NCBI GenBank assembly: GCA_041747675.1 | Contig: JBGTES010000090.1 | Location: forward strand, 19,582-83,581 | DNA: 64,000 bases | From: Flavobacteriales bacterium | GTDB lineage: Bacteria; Bacteroidota; Bacteroidia; Flavobacteriales_F; PHOS-HE28 | Direction: 5' to 3' | Part shown: piece by piece, positions 3,001 to 43,536 of the stretch | Numbering within the stretch: position 1 is the stretch's first letter | Layout of the letters: the number at the start of each line of letters is the position of its first letter | The notes under the pieces: generated by a model | Database searches by the model: none | What the model saw: only the letters and a program-made list of their open reading frames with translations | Told to the model about the DNA's origin: nothing | Program-made: the position numbers and the translations under genes

Positions 3001-5041
3001 CGGCAAGAGCGTTGAAGGGATCTCAGGACCAGTCCAGGATGATAAGCCATTCACTGCAGGGCCCGGGGCCAGTGCCGTGGTCCACTGGGAAGTGGTGGTG
3101 CTGCCGGGGATCGATGCGATGGCCGTCCGCATCGAGGCCAGGACCGATGGCCATGCGGATGGCGAGGAGCGCACCCTGCCCGTACTCAGCGATCGGGTGC
3201 TGCTCACTGCGAGCTTGCCCATGGCCTTGCGCGGACCGGGCACCCGCATGTTCAAGTTGCCTGCTCTCCTGAATTCCGGCACGTCATCCAGCGTGGGGCA
3301 TCAGAGTCTGCAACTGGAGTTCACGGCCAACCCTGCCTGGTACGCCGTGCAGGCATTGCCCTACCTGATGGAGTTCCCGCATGCCTGTGCGGAACAGATC
3401 TTCGGGCGCTTCTATGCCAACACCCTCGCAGCGCATGTTTCGCGTGAGCGGCCAGCGATACGCGAAGTGTTCGAGGCATGGCGGCACGCAGCGGAGGCAG
3501 GCGGTCCGGACGCCTTCCTGAGTGCACTGGAAAAGAACCCGGAACTGAAGGGGATCGTGCTGGAGGAGACACCGTGGGTGTTGCAGGCACGCGACGAAAG
3601 CGAGCGCAAGCGGCGCATCGCATTGTTGTTCGACCTGCAGCGCATGGCCACAGAACAGGGCATCGCCTTGGGGAAGTTGCGGGACATGCAGTTGAATGAA
3701 GGATCCTGGCCGTGGTTCAGCGGCATGGGAGGATCGCGCTGGGTAACACAGCACATCGTGGCGGGCTTCGGTCACCTGGAGCGCTTGGGTGCCGCCGACC
3801 TGCGCCCGGATGGCGAGACCCAGAGGATGTTGCAACGGGCCGTTCGCTGGCTGGATGTGGAGTTGGAACGCGAACACAAGGAGCGCCAGAACAGGTTGAG
3901 CGCTGATGAGCGGGCACGGTACCGCCCCGGATATGGGGAACTGTTCCTGCTCTATGCCCGCGGTTTTTTCCCGCGCTGGCCGGGGAGTGCCAATGCACAG
4001 ACCGCCATGCGATATCTGCGCGAACGGCTGGCCGCCGAATGGACCAACTACGGCTTGCAGGAACAAGCGATGATCGCGTTGGTGCTGCACCGCGCCGACG
4101 CGTATGGAACGCCCAAAAGCATCCTTGCATCATTGAAGGAGCGTGCCACTGTGGATGAGGAGCTGGGCATGTATTGGAAAGGCTTCCGTCCGGGTTATCA
4201 ATGGAACGAGTTCCCCACCGAGACGCACGCCCTCTTGATCGAAGCCTTCCACGAGGTAGGCGTTGATGCGGAAGCGGTCGAAGGACTGCGGCAACACCTG
4301 CTTACTCTGAAGCGCACCACCGATTGGGGCACCACCAAGGCCACGGCCACAGCAGTACATGCCCTGCTGCTCACAGGGCCCGACCTTCTGGCGGAAAAGG
4401 AAGCGGCTGTGATCGAAGTGGGTGGTGAACGCGCTGGGATGGAGGATGCCGAAGCGGGCACAGGTTACATCTCGAAGCGCTGGCCGGCCGGATCCATCAC
4501 GCCAGCAATGGGCACCGTGCGCATCAGCACCAGCGATACAGGCACCGTATGGGGCGCGCTGCACTGGCAGTATTTCGAACGCATGGATCAGGTGGAGGCA
4601 CACGGTGGTCCATTCGAATTGAAACACGCTTTGGTACTGCGCGAACGCGACGAGAGTGGCACCCGGCTGATACCCTTGGACGCAGCGCGGCCCCTGATCC
4701 CTGGTGATCGTGTTACGGTGCGGATGGTGCTTACCACGGACCGCTGGCTGGACCATGTGCACCTGAAGGACCTGCGCGCCGCCGGTCTGGAGCCGGTGGG
4801 AACGCTCAGTGGGGCGCATTGGCAGGGGGGACTTTCCTACTACCAGAGCATCCGAGACGCAGCCATGCACTTCTTCTTCGACCGCCTGGCGCCAGGTGAA
4901 CACGTGTTCGAATACGATCTGCGCGTCACGCACGCTGGTGACATGAGCAATGGTGTGGCCACTGTGCAATGCATGTATGCACCCGAGTACGGGGCCAACA
5001 GCGAAGGTGTGCGACTGAAAGTGCTGCACAGCGCGCCCTGA
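1..5041 (+). CDS. alpha-2-macroglobulin family protein, 5'-truncated at the window edge; frame is open from nt 2, first in-window ATG at 131
   Basis: 1636+ aa. Contains the MG-domain region and thioester motif FPHACAEQ (CxEQ) about 1085 aa into the in-window part, plus the C-terminal receptor-binding-like region. Size and motif order match bacterial A2M (YfhM/ECAM-like). Confidence 0.85.
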   Translation, partial: ERSERYQPLLGDEWKGERRRALELCEEAITRHPGSFGARNAEALKARLLEPRLSLRAERAIVPGAPFHALLGYANLQRVHLRVVKDPSGPMDDEFHDPERERKLLQANPIATLIVEPPDDGDLNMHHVEVPMAGLPLGRYVLLLSDGDRFRHGVDRLAYATFQVTGLACADRTQGVEADLVVLDRVTGAPRKEAKATAYIREHRSATERYTAIGNHTTDADGFVRAQLQGHQGMVRWTVTDGADTYTSGGRWIHPYQDGQTSDSIRTFLFTDRAIYRPGQTIHFKGIVSVARGGTTLVKSGHATSLRVFDVNGRVTDSMEVVTDAFGSFHGTTTAPPGLTGMIRIEEKHGSQWVRVEEYKRPTFEVHFDTTAVDARLGALVELRGSATTYSGSSLDGATVRWTVRRTARIPWWSGGFRGFPGLGRPEEIATGTSTTDARGRFALSFTAWPDANIATRHDPLYQFTVEAEVTGQGGETQAGTTAINVGQRSFEVDLMGLDAMDRSKVEGLPLAIRDLAGRPMDRTVTVRIEKLVTPRGTPRPRRIWDRPDRLLAGQVRDPRDHDPIDGDVEEVKLDLPEWHTDSGLVHLPGIRGWDVGSYRITMRVADAPGDTLEVRQHFTVYDPTVERSGFVHEAISIRPVKMRVQPGDEAELLVGTAAPYARILMEVERGGTIVATRWFTLRNEQQLVRLPVMESDRGGFAVHFIAVSAGRETNITHAVEVPWDDKELRVEWMSFRDRTLPGAQEEWRMRITGAQREKVSAQLLATLYDASLDHFVPHGFNMFQWPSYQVRKGWQRVEPVGARVGIAMQRADDLPRDTVRVWPEIDVRWSLSDNWYGYYIQGIRSGVAASGVQEMAGDRVAETAVNEESTGEALADILAVGSEVKQSADLLPPPLRSDFRETAFFFPDLLTDPSGDVVLRFTMPEALTRWRLLGLAHTSDLKLAHLEREVVTRKTLMVMPNLPRFLREGDRIILTARIDVLEGEALSGTARLHLIDPHTGKSVEGISGPVQDDKPFTAGPGASAVVHWEVVVLPGIDAMAVRIEARTDGHADGEERTLPVLSDRVLLTASLPMALRGPGTRMFKLPALLNSGTSSSVGHQSLQLEFTANPAWYAVQALPYLMEFPHACAEQIFGRFYANTLAAHVSRERPAIREVFEAWRHAAEAGGPDAFLSALEKNPELKGIVLEETPWVLQARDESERKRRIALLFDLQRMATEQGIALGKLRDMQLNEGSWPWFSGMGGSRWVTQHIVAGFGHLERLGAADLRPDGETQRMLQRAVRWLDVELEREHKERQNRLSADERARYRPGYGELFLLYARGFFPRWPGSANAQTAMRYLRERLAAEWTNYGLQEQAMIALVLHRADAYGTPKSILASLKERATVDEELGMYWKGFRPGYQWNEFPTETHALLIEAFHEVGVDAEAVEGLRQHLLTLKRTTDWGTTKATATAVHALLLTGPDLLAEKEAAVIEVGGERAGMEDAEAGTGYISKRWPAGSITPAMGTVRISTSDTGTVWGALHWQYFERMDQVEAHGGPFELKHALVLRERDESGTRLIPLDAARPLIPGDRVTVRMVLTTDRWLDHVHLKDLRAAGLEPVGTLSGAHWQGGLSYYQSIRDAAMHFFFDRLAPGEHVFEYDLRVTHAGDMSNGVATVQCMYAPEYGANSEGVRLKVLHSAP

Positions 5042-6362: not shown

Positions 6363-7151
6363 ATGCGATCGATCCACATCCTTTTCGCCGCTGTCCTCAC
6401 GCTTCCCGGTCTGGCCGGCACCATCGTCATCGAGGGCAACTACCAGGGCCGCAACCTCTTCATCCAGAACCCCTTCTCCGAGGCCGGGGTGGGCTTTTGC
6501 GTGTTCGACGTGACGGTGAATGGTCAGATCGCCACCGACGAGATCAATTCCAGTGCTTTCGAGATCGATATGAACAACTTCGGCCTGAAGATGGGCGACC
6601 CCGTGGTGGTGAATATCCGCCACAAGGATGGCTGCACACCGGTGGTGCTCAATCCCGAAGTGCTCCGTCCGCGCAGCACCTTCGATATCGTGAAGCAAAA
6701 CGTCTCCGATGACGGAACCTACACCTGGACCGCCACGAACGAGACGGGGGAGTTACCCTATATCGTGGAACAGAAACGCTGGAACAAGTGGGTGAAGACG
6801 GGCGAGGTAATGGGAAAGGGCAAGCCCGGGGAGCATACGTACAGCTTCAAGGTGACGCCCCACAGCGGAGAGAACACCTTCCGCGTGAAGCAGGTGGACA
6901 TGACACGCCGGGCACGCATCAGCGAAAGTGTGACCTTCACCGACGGCGGTGTGGCCGCGGTGACCTGGGGCCCGCCAAAGCCCAAGGAGGAGATCGTTTT
7001 CAGTGGCAATACGATGTTCGAGATCTACGATGAGTACGGTAACATCGTGAAGCGGGGCACCGCCGACCGTGTGGAGGTGGCCAGCCTGAAGCGCGGCACC
7101 TACTATGTGAACTACGACAACAAGACCGGCGAGACCTTCATCAAGCGCTGA
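6363..7151 (+). CDS. hypothetical secreted protein with probable T9SS C-terminal sorting domain
   Basis: Signal peptide MRSIHILFAAVLTLPGLAG. C-terminus FEIYDEYGNIVKRG...LKRGTYYVNYDNKTGETFIKR resembles a Por_Secre_tail. Confidence 0.5.
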   Translation: MRSIHILFAAVLTLPGLAGTIVIEGNYQGRNLFIQNPFSEAGVGFCVFDVTVNGQIATDEINSSAFEIDMNNFGLKMGDPVVVNIRHKDGCTPVVLNPEVLRPRSTFDIVKQNVSDDGTYTWTATNETGELPYIVEQKRWNKWVKTGEVMGKGKPGEHTYSFKVTPHSGENTFRVKQVDMTRRARISESVTFTDGGVAAVTWGPPKPKEEIVFSGNTMFEIYDEYGNIVKRGTADRVEVASLKRGTYYVNYDNKTGETFIKR

Positions 7152-35825: not shown

Positions 35826-36476
35826 ATGCAGGATCAGGACCGCGAACGACACATACTCGCCGAGGCCGGCAAGGTCTTCATGCGCCTCGGTATCCGCAGC
35901 GTGAACATGGACGATATCGCCCAGCACCTGCGCATCAGCAAGAAGACGCTCTACCAGTATGTGAAGGACAAGAATGAGCTGGTGCTGCGCACGGTAAGGC
36001 AGATCGGGGATCATCACCGGGAGTGCATCCTGGGGATCTGTACCCATGGCCACAATGCCATCGACGAAAGCTTCGAGATCACCCGCTGGGTCGCTTCGCA
36101 GGTGGGCCAGATACATCCTTCGGTACACTTCGACCTGCAGAAGTATCACCCCGAGGCCTGGGACCTTCTGGAAAGCACCGAGCGTGCGGATATCTACCGC
36201 TGCATCTCCGGGAATCTGAAAAAGGGGATCGCTGAAGGGCTGTATCGCGAGGACCTCGACATCGAGATCATCGCACGCATCTACATCTCGCGTTTCGATG
36301 TCACCTTCGATGGCAAGCTCTTCCCGGCCGATCAGTACCGTTTCGAGGACGTGATCTGGGAGTTGTTCCGCTACCACATCCGCGGTATCGCCAGCGACAA
36401 GGGGCGCAAATACCTGATCAAGAAAGTGCTGAAGGAACGTAACACCACGCCGGTCACCGCGGCGACCCGCAAATGA
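35826..36476 (+). CDS. TetR/AcrR-family transcriptional repressor
   Basis: N-terminal HTH ILAEAGKVFMRLGIRSVNMDDIAQHLRISKKTLYQYVKDK. Confidence 0.8.
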   Translation: MQDQDRERHILAEAGKVFMRLGIRSVNMDDIAQHLRISKKTLYQYVKDKNELVLRTVRQIGDHHRECILGICTHGHNAIDESFEITRWVASQVGQIHPSVHFDLQKYHPEAWDLLESTERADIYRCISGNLKKGIAEGLYREDLDIEIIARIYISRFDVTFDGKLFPADQYRFEDVIWELFRYHIRGIASDKGRKYLIKKVLKERNTTPVTAATRK

Positions 36477-37807
36477 ACATGCGTACACTGCTTATCTCCG
36501 GCCTGTGGGCCTTTGCCGCGTTGCCGGTGCTGGCCCAGGGGCCCGTAAGCCTGAGCCTGCAGCAGGCCGTGGACCTGGCCGCCGAGCAGAGTTACCAGGT
36601 GCGGAACAGCGCGTTGGAGGCCGAGAAGGCGCGCAAGCGGATCACCGAATTCATGGCCATCGGCCTGCCGCAGGTCACCGCATCGGGCGGGTTGATGAAC
36701 TACATCGATGTGCCCACCCAGGTGGTGCCCAACTTCTTCGGCCCGGGCCCGGAAGTAGTGGCCGTGCAGTTCGGCCTGCCCTGGAGTGCCAACGGTGGTG
36801 TGCGACTGGACCAGCTGATCTTCGATGGCAGCTACCTCGTGGGCCTGCAGGCCGTCAAGGAGGCGCGCACAATGGCCGATGAGGAGCTGGAGCGCAGTGT
36901 CAAGGACGCACGCATCCAGGCCGCCAAAGCCTACTTCGCCGTACTTGCGGCCGACGAGGGCACGCGCCTGCTGGGCGAGACCGTACCTGTGCTGGAGAAG
37001 AGCCTGCGCGACAGCGAGGTGATGTGGGAGAACGGCTTCATGGAGGAGACCGACGTGGACCGTATCCGCATCGAGATGGCCAACGTGCGCGACCAGCTGC
37101 TGGTCTTCCAACGGCAGGGCGAACTGGCCCGCAACTTCCTCCGCTTCGTGCTGGGCATGAACATGGGCACGCCGTTGGAGCTGACCGATGATCTGGACAA
37201 GTTGATCCTGGACCCTGCGGAGATGGCCCTCGCCGGGGAGCCCTTCGACCGCGCGCGCCACATCGACCAGCGCATCGCCGAGACCAACATCCGCGCCGGC
37301 ATGATGCAACTGAAGAACGCGCGGGTCGCCTACCTGCCCAGCCTGAGCGGCTACTTCAGCCATCAGCAACAGTGGAACGCCAACACCTTCGAACCGATCG
37401 CAGGTCCCATCCCCTGGTTCCCGGCCACACTGTGGGGCGTGCAGCTCAACGTGCCGATATTCAGCAGTGGCATGCGCGGCAGCAGGGTGGCACAGATGAA
37501 GCTGCTGGTGGAACAGGCCGAGGTGAACCGCGACCTCACCAGCCAGCGCCTGGAACTGGAGTATGCGCAGCGCCGCAACGATGTGCTCACCGCGGAGGAA
37601 CTCTTCCGCAATGAGCGCGACCGCATGGACCTGACGCGCCGTGTCTTCGACCGCACCAGCCTGAAATTCACCGAAGGCATGGCCTCCAGCTTCGAGCTCA
37701 GCCAGGAACAGAACCAGTACATCACTGCGCAGCAGAGCTACATCCAGCGCGTGGTGGACCTGGTGAACGCCAGGGCAGAGCTACGTCGGGCACTCGATCG
37801 TTTCTAA
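36473..37807 (+). CDS. TolC-family outer-membrane efflux protein
   Basis: Signal peptide, then LSLQQAVDLAAEQSYQVR... with two repeat halves. ATGA overlap with the TetR stop. Confidence 0.8.
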   Translation: MNMRTLLISGLWAFAALPVLAQGPVSLSLQQAVDLAAEQSYQVRNSALEAEKARKRITEFMAIGLPQVTASGGLMNYIDVPTQVVPNFFGPGPEVVAVQFGLPWSANGGVRLDQLIFDGSYLVGLQAVKEARTMADEELERSVKDARIQAAKAYFAVLAADEGTRLLGETVPVLEKSLRDSEVMWENGFMEETDVDRIRIEMANVRDQLLVFQRQGELARNFLRFVLGMNMGTPLELTDDLDKLILDPAEMALAGEPFDRARHIDQRIAETNIRAGMMQLKNARVAYLPSLSGYFSHQQQWNANTFEPIAGPIPWFPATLWGVQLNVPIFSSGMRGSRVAQMKLLVEQAEVNRDLTSQRLELEYAQRRNDVLTAEELFRNERDRMDLTRRVFDRTSLKFTEGMASSFELSQEQNQYITAQQSYIQRVVDLVNARAELRRALDRF

Positions 37808-38009: not shown

Positions 38010-39164
38010 ATGAAACATTTCCTCCTTACCATCCTGATCATCGCCGTGCTGTCCGGCTGCGGCGAAAGTGCCGATATCGATGCGCAGGTACAGTTGAAGC
38101 GCACCGAGCGTGATTCGCTGAAGACCGAGCGCGAGAAGCTCAACGCCGCCATCACCGAGGTGGAGGCCTGGCTCGCCAAGAACGACCCCGATCAACAGCG
38201 CACCCTGCCCATGGTCACCACCTATGAATTGCAGCCGCAGGACTTCGCGCATTGGACCGAAGCGCATGGAAGTGTGCGCGCCGACCAGAATGCAATGGTC
38301 TATACCAGCACCGGAGGCGAAGTGCGCCGCATCCTGGTGCAGCAGGGCCAGACCGTACGAAAGGACCAGGCGATCGTTGACATCAATACCGACGCCTTGC
38401 GCCAGCAGATCCAGCAAGCCGAGTCGAATGTGGAGCTCGCCCGCACCGTGTTCGAGCGCCAGGCAAAACTCTGGGAGCAGAAGGTGGGCAGTGAAGTGCA
38501 GTTCCTGGAGGCCAGGAGCCGCAAGGAAGCCGGTGAGGCCCAGCTACAAGCCCTCAAGGACCAACTGCGCAGTGCCCAGGTGATCGCCCCATTCGATGGC
38601 GTGGTGGACGAGATCTTCCCCAACCTGGGCGACATGGCCAATCCGATGCAGCCGGTGGCCCGTGTGGTGGCGTTGGGAAAAGCGAGCATTGAAGTAGACC
38701 TCGCGGAGGATCTGCTCACCAAGGTGAATATGGGCGATCCCGTGGTGGTCATCATTCCCGAATCCGCGGATACCATCTCGGCGACCATCGACCAGATCGG
38801 CCAGTACATCAACCCGAACAACCGCAGCTTCAAAGTGAGCCTGCGCATGGAGAACGGCACCAAACTGCGCCCCAACCAACTGGCCAATGTGCGGATCCGC
38901 GACCTGGATGTGAAGGACGCGCTGGTGGTGCCCAGCCGCTTGGTGATGGAGAACAGCGCAGGCGACAGCTATGTATATGTGCTGGAAGAACAGGACGGCA
39001 TCACACGCAGTCGCAAGGTGCCTGTGAAGGTACTGAGCACGCAGGGTGGCGAGCTGCTCATCGAGCGTGCGGAAGGCGGATTGAAAGGCGGCGAAATGCT
39101 GATCGACCAGGGATCGCGTCTGGTGGTGGACAAACAGGAGGTGCAGGTGTTAAGGGGTGCATGA
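38010..39164 (+). CDS. efflux RND transporter periplasmic adaptor (membrane fusion protein)
   Basis: Lipobox LSGCG, coiled-coil segment, and HlyD/biotin-lipoyl-like beta-barrel regions. The track ORF begins at a GTG at 37890; the ATG at 38010 gives a lipoprotein signal. Confidence 0.8.
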   Translation: MKHFLLTILIIAVLSGCGESADIDAQVQLKRTERDSLKTEREKLNAAITEVEAWLAKNDPDQQRTLPMVTTYELQPQDFAHWTEAHGSVRADQNAMVYTSTGGEVRRILVQQGQTVRKDQAIVDINTDALRQQIQQAESNVELARTVFERQAKLWEQKVGSEVQFLEARSRKEAGEAQLQALKDQLRSAQVIAPFDGVVDEIFPNLGDMANPMQPVARVVALGKASIEVDLAEDLLTKVNMGDPVVVIIPESADTISATIDQIGQYINPNNRSFKVSLRMENGTKLRPNQLANVRIRDLDVKDALVVPSRLVMENSAGDSYVYVLEEQDGITRSRKVPVKVLSTQGGELLIERAEGGLKGGEMLIDQGSRLVVDKQEVQVLRGA

Positions 39165-39169
39165 TGTGT

Positions 39170-39262
39170 ATGGAGGTTAGGAAGGGGAAGAAGGGAAAGG
39201 AGGTAAGGGAGGTAAGGGAGGTGAAGAAGGTGAAGAAGGTGAAGGAGGTGATGAAGGAGAAG
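39170..39262 (+). repeat. GA-rich degenerate tandem repeat (GGTAAGGGA / GGTGAAGAA units), left flank of the inserted gene
   Basis: ggaaggggaagaagggaaaggaggtaagggaggtaagggaggtgaagaaggtgaagaaggtgaaggaggtgatgaaggagaagg. Confidence 0.6.
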
Positions 39263-39378
39263 GCTTGACGATAGAGAATAAACAATTCATCAAAGCCATG
39301 AACACAACGAACGACCCGCTTCACAGGGACTGGAACATCGAGGGCTATTTCGAACCAGGTGGATCCGTCTCCGTGGTA

Positions 39379-39765
39379 ATGGAGCCGGATGGACGCACAG
39401 TATCTGGTTTCAAGGACCTGTGGGTGTGGAAGCAGGGAATGGTGCTGACCAGCAGGATCCATAAGCTTACCCGAAAGTACCCCAAGGACGAAATGTTCGG
39501 GCTTACCTCGCAGTTGCGTCGTGCCGCCGTTTCGGTACCATCGAATGTCGCAGAGGGTTGGGCGCGCAACCGCATCGGGTTCTTCCAGATGGGTCTGACC
39601 TACGCGCGCGGCTCCGTGGCCGAGATCGAAACCCAACTCTTGATCGCGGTCGACCAGGAGTACATCACCATGGAGGAAGCACAACCGGTCATTGACCTCC
39701 TGAATGGACTCAGCGCTGCTTCGCTCAAGTTTCTTGTCAAGTTGGACGTGAAAAAAGGGAAGTGA
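39379..39765 (+). CDS. four-helix-bundle protein (TIGR02436 / '23S rRNA intervening-sequence protein' family)
   Basis: DLWVWKQGMVLTSRIHKLTRKYPKDEMFGLTSQLRRAAVSVPSNVAEGWAR...GSVAEIETQLLIA is the family signature. The track ORF uses a TTG at 39265; ATG 39379 is the conservative start. GC is lower than the flanks. Confidence 0.7.
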   Translation: MEPDGRTVSGFKDLWVWKQGMVLTSRIHKLTRKYPKDEMFGLTSQLRRAAVSVPSNVAEGWARNRIGFFQMGLTYARGSVAEIETQLLIAVDQEYITMEEAQPVIDLLNGLSAASLKFLVKLDVKKGK

Positions 39766-39940
39766 TCGAGGAGGAGAAGGAAGAGAAGATGGTGAAGGAG
39801 GAGAAGGAGGTAAGGGAGGAGAAGAAGGTGAAGGCCATCACCGATCACCATGCACTCTAACACACGGCGCGCGACCAATTAACACCAGACCCCCTCGCTT
39901 CCCTTACCCCCCTCACCTTCCTTACCTCCCTCACTGATCC
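39766..39940 (+). repeat. right flank: second GA-rich repeat copy followed by its CT-rich inverted complement (hairpin-capable)
   Basis: ggtgaaggaggagaaggaggtaagggaggagaagaaggtgaagg ... cgcttcccttacccccctcaccttccttacctccctcac is imperfectly complementary to the GA-rich units on both sides of the gene. Confidence 0.6.
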
Positions 39941-39972
39941 CAATACCACCCAGACCGTTCTCCTCTCACACC

Positions 39973-42900
39973 ATGTCAGACAACGGCAAAACCTACCAGG
40001 ACAAACGCTTCGCGATCAGCTCGTGGGCCGTGGACAACCGTGCCACCGTGATGGTGCTGTCCATCCTTATCGCCCTGATCGGCTTCAACGCCTACAACAC
40101 CATGCCGCGGGAAGCCTTCCCCGAAGTGGTGACGCCCGAGATCTACGTGAGCACCATCTACCCGGGCAATGCACCGGACGACATGGAGAAGCTCATCACC
40201 CGCCCGCTGGAGAAGGAGATCAAGACCATCACCGGCATCGACGAGGTCCTCTCCACCAGCGTGCAGGGCTTCAGCACCATCCACGTGAAGTTCGACTTCA
40301 ACGTGACGCCCAGCGAGGCGTTGCGCAAGGTGAAGGACGCCGTGGACAAGGCCAAGGCCGACCCCGATTTCCCGACCGACCTGCCCGCCGAACCCAACGT
40401 CTTCGAGATGAACTTCTCGGAGATCATGCCCATCCTCAATATCAACCTCAGCGGCGACTACAGCATCGACCAACTGAACAAGTGGGCCGAGATGCTGGAG
40501 GACAAGATCGAGGACCTGCCGGAGGTGAGCAAGGTGGAGCTCCGCGGCGTGCCGAAGAAGGAGGTGCGCATCAGTCTCGACCTGCGCAAGATGGAAGCGC
40601 GTGAGATCTCCTTCGGTGATGTGGCCTCGGCGGTGCAGAGCGAGAACGTGAGCATCAGCGGCGGTGAGGTGCTGGTGGACGGCCTGCGTCGCACCGTGAG
40701 CGTGAACGGCGAGTTCACCGACATGGACCAGGTGCGCGGCATCATCGTGAAGCAGGAGAACCTGGACATCGTGCGCCTGGGCGAGATCGCCGACGTGGCC
40801 TTCACCTATGTGGAGCCCACAAGCTTCGCACGTGAATATGGACAGCCGGTGGTGATGGTGGATGTGATGAAGCGCAGTGGACGCAACCTGCTTGTGGCAG
40901 CGGACAGCATCAAGGCGCTCATCGGCCGCTTTGAACGCACCGTGTTCCCTGCCGATCTGCACGTGACGCTCACCGGCGACATGAGCGACCAGACACGGAC
41001 CCAGGTGGACGAACTGGAGAACAGCATCATCTTCGGGATCCTGCTCGTGGTGGGTGTGCTCATGTTCTTCCTCGGCCTGCGCAACGCCATCTTCGTGGGC
41101 ATCGCGATCCCCATGAGCATGCTGCTGAGCTTCATCGTGCTCAGCTCGATGGGCTACACATTGAACATGATGGTGCTCTTCAGCCTCGTGCTCGCATTGG
41201 GCATGCTGGTGGACAACGGCATCGTGGTGATCGAGAACACCCACCGCCTGATGAGCGAAGGGCAATCGCCCCTGCGTGCCGCCAAGAACGGCATCGGTGA
41301 AGTGGCCATGCCCATCATCGCCAGCACCGCCACCACCGTTGCGGTGTTCATTCCGCTCATCTTCTGGCCGGGCATCATGGGCGAGTTCATGAAGTACCTG
41401 CCCATCACGCTGATGGTGGTGCTCGGCTCGTCGCTCTTCGTGGGGCTCATCATCAACCCCATGCTGGCCTCGCGTTACATGCGGGTGGCGCAGGATGGCC
41501 CCACGCGCTTTCTCACCTTCGTTGTGGGCAGCTGGATGACCGGTATCGGATTACTCTTCAGCCTGATGGGCTTCATCGGCGAGGTCCGCTTCCTCTTCAC
41601 CCTGGGCAACCTGATGCTCGCCTTCGGCCTGTTCGGATTCCTCAACCACTATGTCCTCTACCCGGCGGCGGTCCGCTTCCAAACGGTGACGATGCCGCGC
41701 CTGGAGGAGAAGTACCGTAATTTCCTCGCATGGGCATTACAAGGTCTTACACCAATCTTCATGTTTCTTGCTACGATAGGTCTGCTTATCATGTCCGGCG
41801 TGCTGGTCTGGCTCTTTCCACCCAAGACGCTCTTCTTCCCGGTGAACGAACCGCTTTACGTCAATGTGTTCATCGAGAAACCGATCGGTACGGACATCAA
41901 CGAAACGGATGCCACCACCCGCTTGATCGAGGAGCGCGTGATCCAGGTGTTGAGCGATCCGCGTTACAACGAGCAGGTCACCGATACGCTCGCAGATGGC
42001 ACGGTGCAGCAGCACACGGTGAACTTCATGGTCAGTTCATTGATCGCGCAGGTGGGCGAAGGCACCAGCGATCCCATGGCCGGTCCCAGCTTCGATGCCA
42101 CACCGCACAAGGCGCGTGTGCAGGTCAGCTTCGTGAAGTCCTCGGAGCGTCGGGGTATCAATACGTTGGAAGTGATGGAAGCGATCCGCGATGCCGTGCG
42201 CGGTGTGCCCGGCGTTACCGTGGTGGTGGACAAGGATGCCGCTGGCCCGCCGGTGGGCAAACCGATCAACATCGAGATCAAGGGCGAGGATGTGAACGGA
42301 CTGATCGCCGAGGGTGAACGCCTGCGCCAGTTCCTGATCGGGCAGCATATCGCCGGGGTGGAGGAGTTGAAGCTGGACATCGAACTGGGCAAGCCCGAGA
42401 TGCCTGTGGACATCGATCGCAGCAAGGCGCGCCGCTACAATGTGAGCACCTATGCCATCGGCGATGCCATACGCACCGCGCTCTACGGCCGCGAGGTGAG
42501 CACCTACAAGGAAGGCGAGGACGACTACCCCGTGAACCTGCGGCTGATGGACCAGTACCGCTACGATCCGGAAGTGCTCACCAGCATGCGCATCACCTTC
42601 CGCGACCAGACCGATGGCAAGATCCGCCAGGTGCCCATCAGCGCCCTGGCCACCACCCGCTACACCAGCACCTACAGCGCCGTGAAACGCAAGAACCTGG
42701 ACCGCATGGTGCAGGTGCAGAGCAACGTGCTTGGCGACTTCAACCCCGCCGAGGTCGTGGGCAAGGTGCAGCACGCCATGCTCGATTATCAGAAGGATCC
42801 CGCATACACTTACGAGTTCACCGGAGAGATGAAGGAGCAGGAGAAGCAGATGGCCTTCCTCAGCACCGCGTTGATGATCGCCGTGTTCATGGTCTTCCTC

Positions 42901-43536
42901 ATCATCGTGGCGCAATTCAACAGCGCCGCCATACCGGGTATCATCGTCAGCTCGGTGGTCTTCAGCCTCATTGGTGTGTTCCTCGGTCTGGTGATCTTCC
43001 GCATGGAGTTCGTGATCATGATGACCATGGTGGGCATCATCTCCCTGGCGGGCATCGTGGTGAACAACAGCATCGTGCTCATCGACTTCATGATGTTGAT
43101 GCAGAAACGGAGGAAGTCCGAGCTGGGCCTGAGCGATGATCAACGCCTGCCGATGCCCGAGGTCCTGCATGCGATCGAAGAGGCCGGTGCCCGCCGCCTG
43201 CGCCCCGTGTTGCTTACCGCCATCACCACCGTGCTGGGTCTGATGCCGCTGGCGATCGGACTCAACATCAACTTCTTCACGCTCTTCACCCACCTCGATC
43301 CGCAGGTCTTCATCGGTGGCGACAATGTGGTGTTCTGGGGGCCCATGAGCTGGACGGTGATCTTCGGGCTCATCTTCGCCACCTTCCTCACCCTGGTGAT
43401 CGTGCCGGTGATGTTCCTGCTGCTCGTGAAGGTGCTTTACCGTTTCGTTCCCGTGGTGGATCTAAGGACCCCGCAACCCGTGTTGCACGGTGCAGATGGT
43501 CATGGGGCGGTGAAGTCTGTGGAGACGGGGGGGTGA
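39973..43536 (+). CDS. efflux RND transporter permease subunit (AcrB/CzcA superfamily)
   Basis: 1187 aa with twelve TM segments, two large periplasmic loops, and a family-typical N-terminus (...AISSWAVDNRATVMVLSILIALIGFNAYNTMPREAFPEV). C-terminal extension of about 100 aa. Confidence 0.85.
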   Translation: MSDNGKTYQDKRFAISSWAVDNRATVMVLSILIALIGFNAYNTMPREAFPEVVTPEIYVSTIYPGNAPDDMEKLITRPLEKEIKTITGIDEVLSTSVQGFSTIHVKFDFNVTPSEALRKVKDAVDKAKADPDFPTDLPAEPNVFEMNFSEIMPILNINLSGDYSIDQLNKWAEMLEDKIEDLPEVSKVELRGVPKKEVRISLDLRKMEAREISFGDVASAVQSENVSISGGEVLVDGLRRTVSVNGEFTDMDQVRGIIVKQENLDIVRLGEIADVAFTYVEPTSFAREYGQPVVMVDVMKRSGRNLLVAADSIKALIGRFERTVFPADLHVTLTGDMSDQTRTQVDELENSIIFGILLVVGVLMFFLGLRNAIFVGIAIPMSMLLSFIVLSSMGYTLNMMVLFSLVLALGMLVDNGIVVIENTHRLMSEGQSPLRAAKNGIGEVAMPIIASTATTVAVFIPLIFWPGIMGEFMKYLPITLMVVLGSSLFVGLIINPMLASRYMRVAQDGPTRFLTFVVGSWMTGIGLLFSLMGFIGEVRFLFTLGNLMLAFGLFGFLNHYVLYPAAVRFQTVTMPRLEEKYRNFLAWALQGLTPIFMFLATIGLLIMSGVLVWLFPPKTLFFPVNEPLYVNVFIEKPIGTDINETDATTRLIEERVIQVLSDPRYNEQVTDTLADGTVQQHTVNFMVSSLIAQVGEGTSDPMAGPSFDATPHKARVQVSFVKSSERRGINTLEVMEAIRDAVRGVPGVTVVVDKDAAGPPVGKPINIEIKGEDVNGLIAEGERLRQFLIGQHIAGVEELKLDIELGKPEMPVDIDRSKARRYNVSTYAIGDAIRTALYGREVSTYKEGEDDYPVNLRLMDQYRYDPEVLTSMRITFRDQTDGKIRQVPISALATTRYTSTYSAVKRKNLDRMVQVQSNVLGDFNPAEVVGKVQHAMLDYQKDPAYTYEFTGEMKEQEKQMAFLSTALMIAVFMVFLIIVAQFNSAAIPGIIVSSVVFSLIGVFLGLVIFRMEFVIMMTMVGIISLAGIVVNNSIVLIDFMMLMQKRRKSELGLSDDQRLPMPEVLHAIEEAGARRLRPVLLTAITTVLGLMPLAIGLNINFFTLFTHLDPQVFIGGDNVVFWGPMSWTVIFGLIFATFLTLVIVPVMFLLLVKVLYRFVPVVDLRTPQPVLHGADGHGAVKSVETGG

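What the first reader, a model, noticed from the sequence alone, without database searches (positions are those of the whole stretch)
39166..39960. Four-helix-bundle (23S-rRNA-IVS family) gene inserted between the MFP and RND genes of an efflux operon, bracketed by GA-rich/CT-rich inverted repeats
The TIGR02436-type four-helix-bundle gene sits in the 800-bp gap between the adaptor (stop 39164) and RND pump (start 39973). Its GC is visibly lower than the flanks. The left flank is a degenerate GGTAAGGGA/GGTGAAGAA repeat; the right flank has a second copy followed by its CT-rich reverse complement, so the mRNA can form a long stem. This family was first described inside stem-loop intervening sequences of 23S rRNA that RNase III excises. 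The same flanks here suggest an IVS-like, possibly mobile cassette that may cleave or segment the efflux transcript.
Basis: partly seen in the sequence, partly recalled or inferred. Interest (0 to 1): 0.7.

Follow-up and report, generated by a model that had tools for sequence, protein, structure and literature searches.

The report
Hairpin-bracketed four-helix-bundle gene cassette in operon

Summary
Between the adaptor gene (stop 39164) and the RND pump gene (ATG 39973) lie five parts:
- a GA-rich 9-nt tandem array (39172-39263);
- a PF05635/TIGR02436 four-helix-bundle (4HB) gene (39298-39765);
- a second GA array (39768-39835);
- a spacer;
- a CT-rich reverse-complement array (39890-39935).

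Of 17 orthologous operons in one scan, only one carries the cassette. Three more were found through protein look-ups, all with the same layout. The two closest relatives lack it.

4HB genes 79-82% identical, with the same GGTAAGGGA/TCCCTTACC arrays, sit between sdhA and sdhB. More distant ones sit between sufS and sufE and at a fourth site.

Across 75 diverse 4HB genes, 53 have bracketing inverted repeats above the 99th percentile of control genes (p=1.5e-27). These are mostly heptamer arrays. The 5' arm starts at the upstream stop codon. Polarity is conserved in 57 of 59 informative loci. Eight of nine viral-contig loci repeat the pattern.

dN/dS is 0.04-0.08, so the protein is under selection.

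The Coxiella 23S IVS has the same anatomy. RNase III cleavage here is untested, and a wobble-pair test did not show RNA-specific selection.

Best reading: an IVS-type cassette between cistrons, occasionally mobile. It is a new variant of a known kind.

The parts
38010..39164 (+). Upstream host gene: membrane-fusion (adaptor) lipoprotein of the TetR-OMP-MFP-RND efflux operon. Its stop codon lies 8 nt before the left array.
   Evidence: Pfam HlyD_D23 E 1.8e-17 and HlyD_3. The ORF listing starts at GTG 37890; I infer ATG 38010 from the MKHFLL...SGC lipoprotein signal. 17 orthologous operons found.
39172..39263 (+). Left (5') arm: GA-rich tandem array of about ten 9-nt units (GGTAAGGGA / GGTGAAGAA type).
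   Evidence: TRF period 9, 9.1 copies, 83% matches. Pattern matches far above chance. Complementary to 39892-39934. Pairs with the CT array in the MFE of the whole region. Duplex -62.7 kcal/mol.
39264..39297 (+). A-rich leader between the left array and the 4HB start codon.
   Evidence: Sequence. No TAnnTTTG motif in 39101-39990. No sigma-70-type promoter between 38032 and 42917.
39298..39765 (+). Four-helix-bundle protein gene (155 aa) of the 23S rRNA-IVS protein / S23p family, with a conserved extension of about 37 aa at the N-terminus.
   Evidence: PF05635 E 1.1e-29 and TIGR02436 E 3.6e-27. Orthologues of 154-156 aa. AF2 model with four helices, pLDDT 84.6. Foldseek hit to 2GSC, TM 0.92, 39% identity. 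dN/dS 0.04-0.08.
39768..39835 (+). Right GA-rich tandem array (about 7 units), starting 2 nt after the 4HB stop codon. An alternative partner for the CT array.
   Evidence: TRF period 9, 7.3 copies. Inverted repeats I6, I9 and I10. Pairs with the CT array in the local fold, z -2.5. The same extra array is present in L003, L119 and L120-123.
39836..39889 (+). Spacer, or loop, between the right GA array and the CT array.
   Evidence: Sequence. Spacers of different length and sequence occur in L003, L119 and L120.
39890..39935 (+). 3' arm: CT-rich tandem array (TCCCTTACC / CCTCACCTT), the reverse complement of the GA units.
   Evidence: TRF period 9/18, 85% matches. Matches on the minus strand. 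Inverted repeats I1-I11.
39958..39975 (+). CT-rich stretch (TTCTCCTCTCACACC) plus the RND start codon ATG (39973-39975). Positions 39958-39974, which include the first two bases of the ATG, are complementary to 39789-39805 in the right GA array.
   Evidence: Inverted repeats I12 (17 nt, 82%) and I14. In sdh- and suf-site cassettes the CT arm runs up to the downstream start codon.
39973..43536 (+). Downstream host gene: RND inner-membrane pump.
   Evidence: Pfam ACR_tran E 2e-167. Orthologues 77-94% identical.

Best explanation
This is an IVS-type cassette sitting between two cistrons. A 4HB (S23p/Avd-like) gene is carried in the loop of a long imperfect hairpin. The two sides of the hairpin are inverted arrays of one short tandem repeat: 9-nt GGTAAGGGA-type units on the 5' side and their complement on the 3' side.

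Shown:
- The cassette exactly fills the gap between the adaptor gene's stop codon and the pump gene's start region.
- No promoter-like or + strand terminator-like site was found inside it.
- It is present in only part of a tight Flavobacteriales clade.
- The same gene with the same repeat unit occupies sdhA|sdhB and two other operon junctions in related bacteria.
- Array copy number changes between strains that have an identical protein.
- The protein is under strong purifying selection.
- About 70% of sampled family members across bacteria and viral contigs have such a bracket. The 5' arm starts at the upstream stop codon, the 3' arm ends about 20 nt before the next start codon, and polarity is conserved (RGT-containing strand first).

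Inferred:
- The cassette is transcribed as part of the operon mRNA.
- The arms pair there, looping the inserted ORF out. This brings the upstream stop codon and the downstream start region together and so limits harm to operon expression, much as the IVS stem extends a 23S rRNA helix.
- The duplex is a likely substrate for a double-strand-specific RNase (RNase III), as shown for the Coxiella IVS.
- New copies arise rarely by an unknown route.
- Tandem repeats make pairing independent of register and let the arms grow or shrink by slippage.
- The biochemical role of the protein is unknown. Its fold relative Avd binds RNA and a reverse transcriptase.
For: - Anatomy in the window.
- Family membership.
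- Presence and absence: only L003 of 17 orthologous operons has the cassette, with the same layout. L119 and L120-123 also have it. In the MFP tree, cassette-less L001 and L002 are sisters of the cassette-bearing window and L120.
- Other sites with the same unit: sdhA|sdhB with 4HB 79-82% identical; beta-lactamase-family|RNase_H_2-exonuclease and sufS|sufE. The exact 18-mer GGTRAGGGAGGTRAGGGA occurs only next to 4HB genes among 149 loci.
- Array length polymorphism with an identical protein and 3' flank: L120, L122 and L123.
- Units differ between lineages while the arms stay complementary, for example a perfect 22-nt inverted repeat of GATAAAGTG-type units in L139.
- The MFE folds of the minimal cassettes pair the first and last 60 nt with 22-32 bp.
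- Family-wide statistics:
  - Inverted-repeat score has median 35 against 17.5 in controls; 53 of 75 genes exceed the control 99th percentile; p=1.5e-27.
  - Matched arms beat arms permuted between loci.
  - Geometry relative to neighbouring stop and start codons.
  - Polarity 57:2, p=6e-15.
  - Replicated in viral contigs, 8 of 9.
- dN/dS 0.04-0.08.
- Literature:
  - The Coxiella IVS has tandem heptamers before the S23p ORF, a 28-bp terminal stem and RNase III cleavage (PMC4990558).
  - 23S_rRNA_IVP genes have been seen between cmr3 and cmr2 (PMC3936711).
  - Cyanobacterial 7-bp STRR hairpins between hupS and hupL have been proposed to stabilise transcripts or couple translation (PMC2670836).
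Against: - There are no transcript data, so pairing in vivo and RNase III cutting are untested.
- In 65 stems, mismatches that would be G-U pairs on the sense RNA (76) are not more frequent than those that would be G-U only on the antisense strand (91; p=0.28). This gives no signature of selection on the sense RNA and fits a DNA-level or copy-correction origin of complementarity equally well.
- The window's stem is only z -2.1 (left arm) and z -0.7 (right arm) against shuffled CT arms, and the 836-nt fold is z -0.8.
- No recombinase, transposase, target-site duplication or recent insertion was found, so mobility is inferred only from distribution.
- Saturated dS and low dN/dS show long vertical retention, which a purely selfish element does not explain.
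- Co-orientation with neighbours in the broad set (76% and 72%) is not above the usual bacterial background.
- About 30% of family members lack a detectable bracket.
Confidence: 0.55

Rival explanations
1. The arrays work at the DNA level. They would be binding sites for a protein (IHF/HU-like, a recombinase, or the 4HB pentamer itself), or ends used by a mobilising enzyme supplied in trans. Any RNA hairpin would then be a by-product.
For: - There is no sense-strand G-U bias in 65 stems.
- Polarity is strongly conserved and an RGT/AGT/GTG core recurs across unrelated hosts, which suggests sequence-specific recognition rather than just any stem.
- Paired inverted arrays of tandem 7-9-mers in Geobacter metallireducens were annotated as putative global-regulator/IHF sites (PMC2700814).
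- Cassettes occur at several sites.
Against: - Unit sequences differ widely between loci, and even between two cassettes on one contig (L079, L046). A single trans-acting enzyme with a fixed site is therefore unlikely.
- No transposase or recombinase is in or next to the cassettes examined.
- The arms are placed relative to stop and start codons, which are translation-level landmarks.
Confidence: 0.2
2. The arrays are a contingency switch based on simple-sequence repeats. Gain or loss of repeat units changes stem length or the choice between the two GA arrays. That would tune translation of the downstream gene (the RND pump here), whose start region lies in or next to the CT arm.
For: - Array copy number differs among contigs with an identical protein and 3' flank, and among Coxiella strains.
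- There are two alternative GA partners for one CT array.
- 39958-39974, which includes the first two bases of the RND ATG, is complementary to the right GA array (I12).
- CT arms abut the sdhB and sufE start codons.
Against: - It does not explain why a conserved protein gene sits inside the hairpin.
- It does not explain why housekeeping operons (sdh, suf, hisS) would need such switching.
- No expression data exist.
- It could be a secondary consequence of the main explanation rather than a true alternative.
Confidence: 0.12
3. The 4HB gene is a dedicated accessory or regulatory component of this efflux system, and the repeats are ordinary intergenic low-complexity sequence.
For: - The gene is co-oriented and conserved at this site in at least four lineages, under purifying selection.
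Against: - It is absent from 16 of 17 orthologous operons in the genome scan, including the two closest relatives.
- Near-identical cassettes sit in sdh operons, and more distant ones in suf, hisS, permease and cas operons.
- The repeats are a family-wide property with p=1.5e-27.
Confidence: 0.04

Closest known systems
23S rRNA intervening sequences that carry an S23p ORF (Leptospira, Coxiella burnetii, Brucella, Xanthomonas)
   Same: - The same protein family (PF05635).
- The ORF is enclosed by terminal inverted repeats that form a long stem.
- In Coxiella a purine-rich stretch and 2-3 tandem heptamers precede the ORF, and their copy number varies between strains.
- Distribution among relatives is sporadic.
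- GC is lower than in the host (PMC4990558).
   Different: - The host molecule here is a polycistronic mRNA, between the adaptor and pump genes, not an rRNA helix. There is no rRNA in the window.
- The arms are long arrays (46-92 nt of 9-nt units), with an extra internal array.
- The protein is under strong purifying selection, whereas the Coxiella ORF was judged to be decaying.
- RNase III processing is shown for the IVS and untested here.
Cyanobacterial STRR (short tandemly repeated repetitive) hairpins, e.g. between hupS and hupL
   Same: - Tandem repeats of about 7 bp, in inverted arrangement, form a hairpin in the spacer between two co-transcribed genes.
- The proposed roles are transcript stability or translational coupling (PMC2670836).
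- Many 4HB flanks sampled here use heptamers of the same style, such as CAGTGGT, GAACAGT and GGGGTCA.
   Different: - STRR hairpins are described without an ORF in the loop and without any link to PF05635.
- The window uses 9-nt units and comes from Flavobacteriales.
- Whether STRR hairpins are ORF-less derivatives of such cassettes was not tested.
Paired inverted arrays of tandem 7-9-mers in Geobacter metallireducens (Gmet_I1xx-I3xx 'global regulator binding sites')
   Same: - 53 pairs of sites on opposite strands, each made of 3-5 tandem 7-9-nt units.
- Several lie between genes of one operon, such as proB|proA and moaA|mosC (PMC2700814).
   Different: - The class 3 pairs whose coordinates I read are only about 80-100 nt apart, with no room for a gene between them.
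- They were interpreted as DNA sites for IHF/HU.
- No connection to 4HB genes was made in that paper, and none was tested here.
Avd, the accessory protein of diversity-generating retroelements
   Same: - The same fold (4DWL and 8UBE, TM 0.84-0.87) and a weak sequence relation.
- In the DGR reverse-transcriptase ribonucleoprotein structures (8UBE, 8UB7) Avd is part of the RNA-protein complex. My own recollection is that it is a pentamer that binds the RNA and the reverse transcriptase. This gives a precedent for nucleic-acid binding by the family.
   Different: - It scores 16 bits against a cut-off of 80 for the Avd equivalog.
- There is no reverse transcriptase, template repeat or variable repeat nearby, because the neighbours are efflux genes.
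- It is much closer to Xcc0516 (39% identity) than to Avd (8%).
REP/BIME elements and MITEs in intergenic spacers of operons
   Same: - Small, non-autonomous, palindromic or inverted-repeat elements that settle between co-transcribed genes.
- A REP-like element occupies this very site in L001, L002 and L007.
   Different: - REP elements and MITEs carry no conserved protein gene.
- Their arms are unique imperfect palindromes or TIRs that are conserved across copies in a genome, not locus-specific tandem arrays.

Membership tests
PF05635 / TIGR02436 four-helix-bundle protein (23S rRNA IVS protein, S23p) | Score above the curated cut-off of the family HMMs | tested here: met
   PF05635 scores 103.2 bits against a cut-off of 33.8. 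TIGR02436 scores 94.7 bits against a cut-off of 24.
PF05635 / TIGR02436 four-helix-bundle protein (23S rRNA IVS protein, S23p) | Four-helix-bundle fold like Xcc0516 (2GSC) and BT_0352 (2RLD) | tested here: met
   The AF2 model has pLDDT 84.6 and four helices. Foldseek gives 2GSC with target TM 0.92, rmsd 1.0 A and 39% identity, and 2RLD with TM 0.85. phmmer against 2GSC gives E 1.3e-19.
PF05635 / TIGR02436 four-helix-bundle protein (23S rRNA IVS protein, S23p) | Conserved R-x3-S-x3-N-x2-E motif (reported as GxxRxxxSxxxNxxE in PMC3936711) | tested here: met
   R75, S79, N83 and E86 are invariant in the 30-sequence alignment A1. The leading G of the published consensus is not at the expected spacing in this subfamily.
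PF05635 / TIGR02436 four-helix-bundle protein (23S rRNA IVS protein, S23p) | Homopentameric ring | not tested
   Only a monomer was modelled.
rRNA intervening sequence (IVS) | Inserted in a helix of a 23S (or 16S) rRNA gene | tested here: not met
   The element lies between two protein-coding genes. Rfam at gathering threshold finds only one tRNA in the 64 kb.
rRNA intervening sequence (IVS) | Complementary termini that form a stem enclosing the element | tested here: met
   Arms of 43 nt are 74% complementary. The MFE pairs the left array with the CT array. The duplex has 43 pairs at -62.7 kcal/mol, though only z -2.1. The minimal sister cassettes pair their ends with 22-32 bp.
rRNA intervening sequence (IVS) | Excision by RNase III | not testable with these tools
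   This needs transcript end mapping or an in vitro cleavage assay.
rRNA intervening sequence (IVS) | Sporadic presence among close relatives | tested here: met
   Present in the window, L003, L119 and L120-123. Absent from L001, L002 and 14 further orthologous operons.
DGR accessory protein Avd | Equivalog HMM score, and an adjacent reverse transcriptase with template and variable repeats | tested here: not met
   NF033474 scores 16.2 bits against a cut-off of 80. The neighbours are TetR, OMP, MFP and RND genes.
Transposon / MITE | A transposase (own or in trans) with conserved terminal inverted repeats and a target-site duplication | tested here: inconclusive
   There is no transposase in or beside the cassettes. 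Arms differ between loci. No target-site duplication is visible, but the empty sites available are diverged or occupied by another element.
STRR-type intercistronic hairpin | Inverted tandem arrays of a short unit (about 7 bp) in the spacer between co-transcribed genes | tested here: met
   The window has 9-nt units. Most other family members have 7-nt units. Arms abut the neighbouring stop and start codons. The family has no formal definition beyond this description (PMC2670836).

The most novel reading that the evidence does not exclude
PF05635 four-helix-bundle genes with their inverted tandem-repeat arms would form one widespread, so far unrecognised class of cassettes inserted between cistrons, found in bacteria and phages. 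ORF-bearing rRNA IVSs would be a special case of this class. ORF-less hairpins, such as cyanobacterial STRR hairpins and the Geobacter paired arrays, would be derivatives. The Avd-like pentameric protein would recognise the repeat units of its own arms (RGT core, fixed polarity, one unit per subunit) to drive processing, protection or copying of the element.
Probability: 0.25. Interest if true: 0.9.

Novelty: new variant of a known kind. Interest (0 to 1): 0.75.

Why it matters
Three puzzles have stayed open for decades:
- The S23p/4HB family has had no known function since its description in Leptospira IVSs in 1993.
- Heptamer STRR repeats in cyanobacteria are still described as of unknown function (PMC2670836).
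- rRNA IVSs are of unknown origin.

The results here tie them together with concrete, testable rules:
- The gene normally sits in the loop of a hairpin built from inverted tandem repeats.
- The hairpin spans exactly from the upstream stop codon to just before the next start codon.
- Its polarity is fixed.
- The unit sequence travels with the gene between operons.

This gives a defined RNA or DNA ligand to test with the protein. It gives a clear prediction for RNase III and translational-coupling experiments. It also explains why these genes turn up inside unrelated conserved operons (efflux, sdh, suf, cas).

For annotation, the arrays are sometimes miscalled as small ORFs (46-52 aa in L120-L122). 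The cassette may also alter expression of a drug-efflux pump.

Tried and rejected
- RNA duplex energy between 220-nt flanks as a measure of the bracket. It was dominated by GC content and did not separate 4HB genes from controls, so I replaced it with local alignment of one flank to the reverse complement of the other.
- A purine-first rule for the 5' arm. It holds in only 26 loci against 8 and is not general. It was replaced by the RGT/ACY polarity. That polarity is the same on both strands, so it says nothing about ORF orientation.
- Sense-strand G-U wobble bias as proof of RNA-level selection. The result was negative, 76 against 91.
- Co-orientation with neighbours in the broad set. The crude ORF-based estimate of 72-76% is not above background.
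- Mantel test of protein similarity against flank similarity. It is significant but confounded by orthologous upstream genes, so I did not use it as evidence.
- Rfam. Only sub-threshold miRNA-hairpin look-alikes over the right-hand hairpin; nothing at gathering threshold except a tRNA.
- PADLOC gave no hit, and PHROGs gave only a weak Avd hit, so there is no defence-system assignment.
- Promoter and terminator scan. No promoter-like or + strand terminator-like site in the cassette, and no Bacteroidetes TAnnTTTG motif.
- Exact look-up of the window's RND protein found no record.
- The REP-like element that replaces the cassette in L001, L002 and L007 is not in the window.
- Literature searches found no paper linking PF05635 genes outside rRNA to flanking tandem-repeat arms. 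The library is open-access only, the 1993 Leptospira paper is not held, and I could not read the TIGR02436 entry text.
Full report
**What is at the locus**

The window carries a TetR-OMP-MFP-RND efflux operon on the + strand:
- TetR regulator, 35826-36476.
- Outer-membrane factor, 36473-37807.
- Adaptor lipoprotein, ending at 39164.
- RND pump, from 39973.

The 808-nt gap between adaptor and pump holds an ORF that matches PF05635 (103 bits; cut-off 33.8) and TIGR02436 (94.7 bits; cut-off 24). Orthologues are 154-156 aa and share a conserved N-terminal stretch, TNDPxxRDWNxEGYF...ISVVAEPDGR. The real start is therefore ATG 39298, giving 155 aa.

An AlphaFold model (pLDDT 84.6) shows four long helices after a disordered N-terminus. 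Its best structural matches are:
- Xcc0516 (2GSC; TM 0.92, 39% identity).
- BT_0352 (2RLD).
- More distantly, DGR Avd (4DWL, 8UBE).

It is not an Avd equivalog (16 bits against a cut-off of 80), and no reverse transcriptase is nearby.

**The repeats**

There are three arrays:
- 39172-39263, directly after the adaptor stop codon: about ten 9-nt units (GGTAAGGGA, GGTGAAGAA and variants).
- 39768-39835, directly after the 4HB stop codon: a second GA array.
- 39890-39935, after a 54-nt spacer: the reverse complement (TCCCTTACC, CCTCACCTT).

The degenerate two-unit pattern hits 15 times in this region, against 0.02 expected for the whole window. Elsewhere in the 64 kb there are only two marginal hits.

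The CT array can pair with either GA array:
- The MFE of the whole region chooses the left array, which encloses the gene.
- The local fold chooses the right array (z -2.5).
- Duplex energies are -62.7 and -49.5 kcal/mol. These are only z -2.1 and -0.7 against shuffled CT arms, because GA-rich and CT-rich strands pair in almost any register.

A further CT-rich stretch, 39958-39974, overlaps the first two bases of the pump's ATG and is complementary to part of the right GA array (I12).

GC is 0.56 in the gene against 0.60 in the neighbours. No sigma-70-type promoter-like site or + strand terminator-like site lies in the gap, and no Bacteroidetes-type TAnnTTTG motif was found.

The "long stem" is real as complementarity but statistically modest for this single locus.

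**Relatives of the operon**

A genome-collection scan with the adaptor protein found 17 orthologous operons in Flavobacteriales MAGs, at 65-84% adaptor identity. Only L003 has the cassette, at the same place and with the same order: GA array, gene, GA array, spacer, CT array. Look-ups of close 4HB proteins added L119 and L120-123, with the same site and layout.

The other operons have gaps of 11-278 nt. In L001, L002 and L007 the gap holds one to three copies of an unrelated REP-like palindromic element.

In the adaptor tree, cassette-less L001 is sister to the window and cassette-less L002 is sister to L120. At least two gains or losses must have occurred within this tight clade.

Synonymous divergence between cassette-bearing members is saturated (dS 0.9-2.3), while dN/dS is 0.04-0.08. 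The cassette is therefore old, and its protein is maintained by selection.

**The same cassette in other operons**

The 4HB proteins occupy four operon junctions:

| Junction | Loci | 4HB identity to the window |
|---|---|---|
| MFP\|RND (this site) | window, L003, L119, L120-123 | 84-100% |
| sdhA\|sdhB | L124-133; also L039, L041 | 79-82% (P0014, P0019, P0023); 54-56% |
| beta-lactamase-family gene \| RNase_H_2-type exonuclease gene | L134, L138 | 69-73% |
| sufS\|sufE | L135-137, L139-140, L040 | 50-55% |

In the first three sites the flanks are the same 9-nt family: GGTAAGGGA or GGTGAAGGA upstream and TCCCTTACC or CCTCCTTCACC downstream. In the sdh and suf sites they fill the whole spacer between the neighbouring stop and start codons. 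The 18-mer GGTRAGGGAGGTRAGGGA occurs only beside 4HB genes among all 149 loci fetched.

The suf-site copies use a different unit, yet the two arms still match each other. L139 has a perfect 22-nt inverted repeat, TAAAGTGATAGAGTGATAAAGT / ACTTTATCACTCTATCACTTTA.

In a neighbour-joining tree the efflux-site genes are sister to one sdh-site group. Other sdh-site and suf-site genes fall on separate branches. Sites and gene lineages therefore do not match. The tree rests on a short protein and is only indicative.

Contigs with an identical protein and identical 3' flank differ in array length: 3+5, 6+4, and at least 2+9 units.

MFE folds of the minimal sdh and suf cassettes pair their first and last 60 nt with 22-32 base pairs, enclosing the ORF.

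**A property of the whole family**

A metagenome scan with the alignment of the subfamily returned 80 loci from very diverse bacteria. Many showed locus-specific tandem repeats upstream and their complement downstream. Examples are (GGGGTCA)n / (TGACCCC)n, and (GGGAATA)n and (GAGTGGC)n upstream.

I aligned 250 nt upstream to the reverse complement of 250 nt downstream for 75 genes:
- The median score was 35, against 17.5 for 330 control ORFs from the same loci.
- 53 of 75 genes exceeded the controls' 99th percentile (Mann-Whitney p=1.5e-27).
- Tandem-repeat scores were raised on both sides.
- The dominant period was 7 nt, with 9 nt in the Flavobacteriales group.

Matched arms scored higher than arms permuted between loci. 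Some unit families (CAGTTCT, AGTGACN, CAGTGGY) recur across loci.

The geometry is regular:
- The 5' arm begins a median of 0.5 nt from the stop codon of an upstream co-directional long ORF (25 of 40 within 10 nt).
- The 3' arm ends a median of 21 nt before the start of a downstream co-directional ORF.
- The nearest-ORF search favours small distances somewhat, but I estimate the chance rate at only about 12%.

Polarity is also regular. The 5' arm carries more RGT than ACY in 57 loci against 2 (p=6e-15), with AGT, GTG, CAG and GGT as the most skewed trinucleotides. An inverted repeat reads the same on both strands, so this polarity is independent of gene orientation.

Nine loci from viral contigs (seven distinct) gave an independent replication. 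Eight of the nine exceeded the control threshold, again with heptamer arrays.

**Tests that did not support an RNA-only reading**

- In 65 stems, mismatches that would be G-U on the sense RNA (76) were not more frequent than those that would be G-U only on the antisense strand (91; p=0.28).
- Transitions outnumber transversions (167 to 108). This fits either tolerance of wobble pairs on both strands or plain mutation bias.
- Co-orientation with neighbours in the broad set (76% and 72%) is not above the usual bacterial level, although the ORF-based method is crude.
- All four Flavobacteriales sites, which have proper gene calls, are co-oriented.

**Comparison with what is known**

- **Coxiella 23S IVS.** It is a 428-nt element carrying an S23p ORF. 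Its termini form a 28-bp stem cut by RNase III. Its 5' part is AGAAGA followed by two or three tandem GACAGAT heptamers before the ORF, with copy number varying between strains and the 5' cut at the first repeat (PMC4990558). This is the same anatomy as found here. The authors judged the Coxiella ORF dispensable, which contrasts with the strong constraint found here.
- **cas loci.** 23S_rRNA_IVP genes have been noted inside cas operons, for example between cmr3 and cmr2, with no mention of repeats (PMC3936711).
- **CPR bacteria.** The genes also occur in rRNA insertions.
- **Cyanobacteria.** STRR hairpins built from 7-bp repeats lie between hupS and hupL. Their function is described as unknown, with transcript stability or translational coupling proposed (PMC2670836).
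- **Geobacter metallireducens.** 53 pairs of inverted tandem 7-9-mer sites, some between operon genes, were annotated as putative IHF/HU sites. The class 3 pairs whose coordinates I read are about 80-100 nt apart, too close to hold a gene (PMC2700814).

I found no paper that connects PF05635 genes outside rRNA with bracketing tandem-repeat arms. The search covers open-access text only.

**Interpretation**

- **Shown:** the anatomy; its recurrence across the family; presence and absence among relatives; the same cassette with the same unit at different operon junctions; array-length polymorphism; purifying selection on the protein.
- **Inferred:**
  - The cassette is co-transcribed with the operon.
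  - The arms pair and loop the ORF out, so the upstream stop codon and the downstream start region come close together. This would limit damage to operon expression, as the IVS stem does in rRNA.
  - The duplex is a likely RNase III substrate.
  - New copies arise rarely by an unknown mechanism.
- **Possible reasons for the fixed polarity:**
  - It could reflect sequence-specific recognition, possibly by the 4HB pentamer.
  - Alternatively, it could avoid exposing a C-rich, unpaired RNA segment to Rho before its partner is made.
  - Both are my own inferences.
- **DNA-level role:** the negative wobble test means a DNA-level role for the arms cannot be excluded.

**Verdict**

Transcript cleavage is untested, and the element is ancient and selected rather than newly inserted. 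The follow-up shows that this locus is one example of a family-wide design. I rate it a new variant of a known kind, with interest 0.75.

Noticed in passing
L001:7160-7400; L002:2765-2830; L007:5840-5925: At the same adaptor|pump junction, cassette-less relatives carry one to three tandem copies of a REP-like element of about 95 nt (GCAGGCCTGCAATACG...GTCGACCCAnnGGGTCGAC...). The junction is therefore a hot spot for different small elements. The palindrome is absent from the window.
   Followed up: partly
L120:4878-5000, L122:1862-2002, L123:1-140: Contigs encoding an identical 4HB protein and an identical 3' flank differ in the number of 9-nt units in the 5' array (3+5, 6+4, at least 2+9). 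Gene callers annotate spurious ORFs of 46-52 aa across these arrays.
   Followed up: yes
L119:5691-9235: In this cassette-bearing relative the RND pump is called as two overlapping ORFs (105 aa and 1084 aa). That implies a frameshift about 300 nt into the gene, which is either a real disruption or an assembly error. It distorted this locus's position in the RND tree.
   Followed up: no
L079:4001-4378 and 6432-6752; L046:1561-1932 and 3387-3752: Two 4HB genes lie within about 2.5 kb on the same contig. Their heptamer units are related but distinct (L079: CGTAGTT-type and CAGTAGC-type). This argues against one fixed recognition sequence per genome.
   Followed up: partly
L108:4001-4402 and L111:2961-3356: Two unrelated soil contigs have a 4HB gene immediately upstream of a gene whose N-terminus I read by eye as histidyl-tRNA synthetase (not tested). 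Both have (GAGTGGC)n arrays only on the 5' side and no detectable 3' arm. They are examples of the roughly 30% of family members without a full bracket.
   Followed up: no
L134:2742-3000 and 3487-3605: This locus has a very long 5' array (about 22 units of GGGAAGYAA in a 259-nt gap) and a 3' array of CCCACYTTA units. The two match only about 6 of 9 positions per unit, so the arms can drift apart.
   Followed up: no
L047:4004-5185: Here the 4HB match lies in a much longer open frame (about 390 codons), which may be a fusion or a missed stop codon. Not examined.
   Followed up: no
window:9929-10001: One tRNA gene, the only Rfam match at gathering threshold in the 64 kb.
   Followed up: no
window:30174-30201: A perfect 8-nt tandem repeat, GATCGGAT x3.5, unrelated to the cassette arrays.
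   Followed up: no
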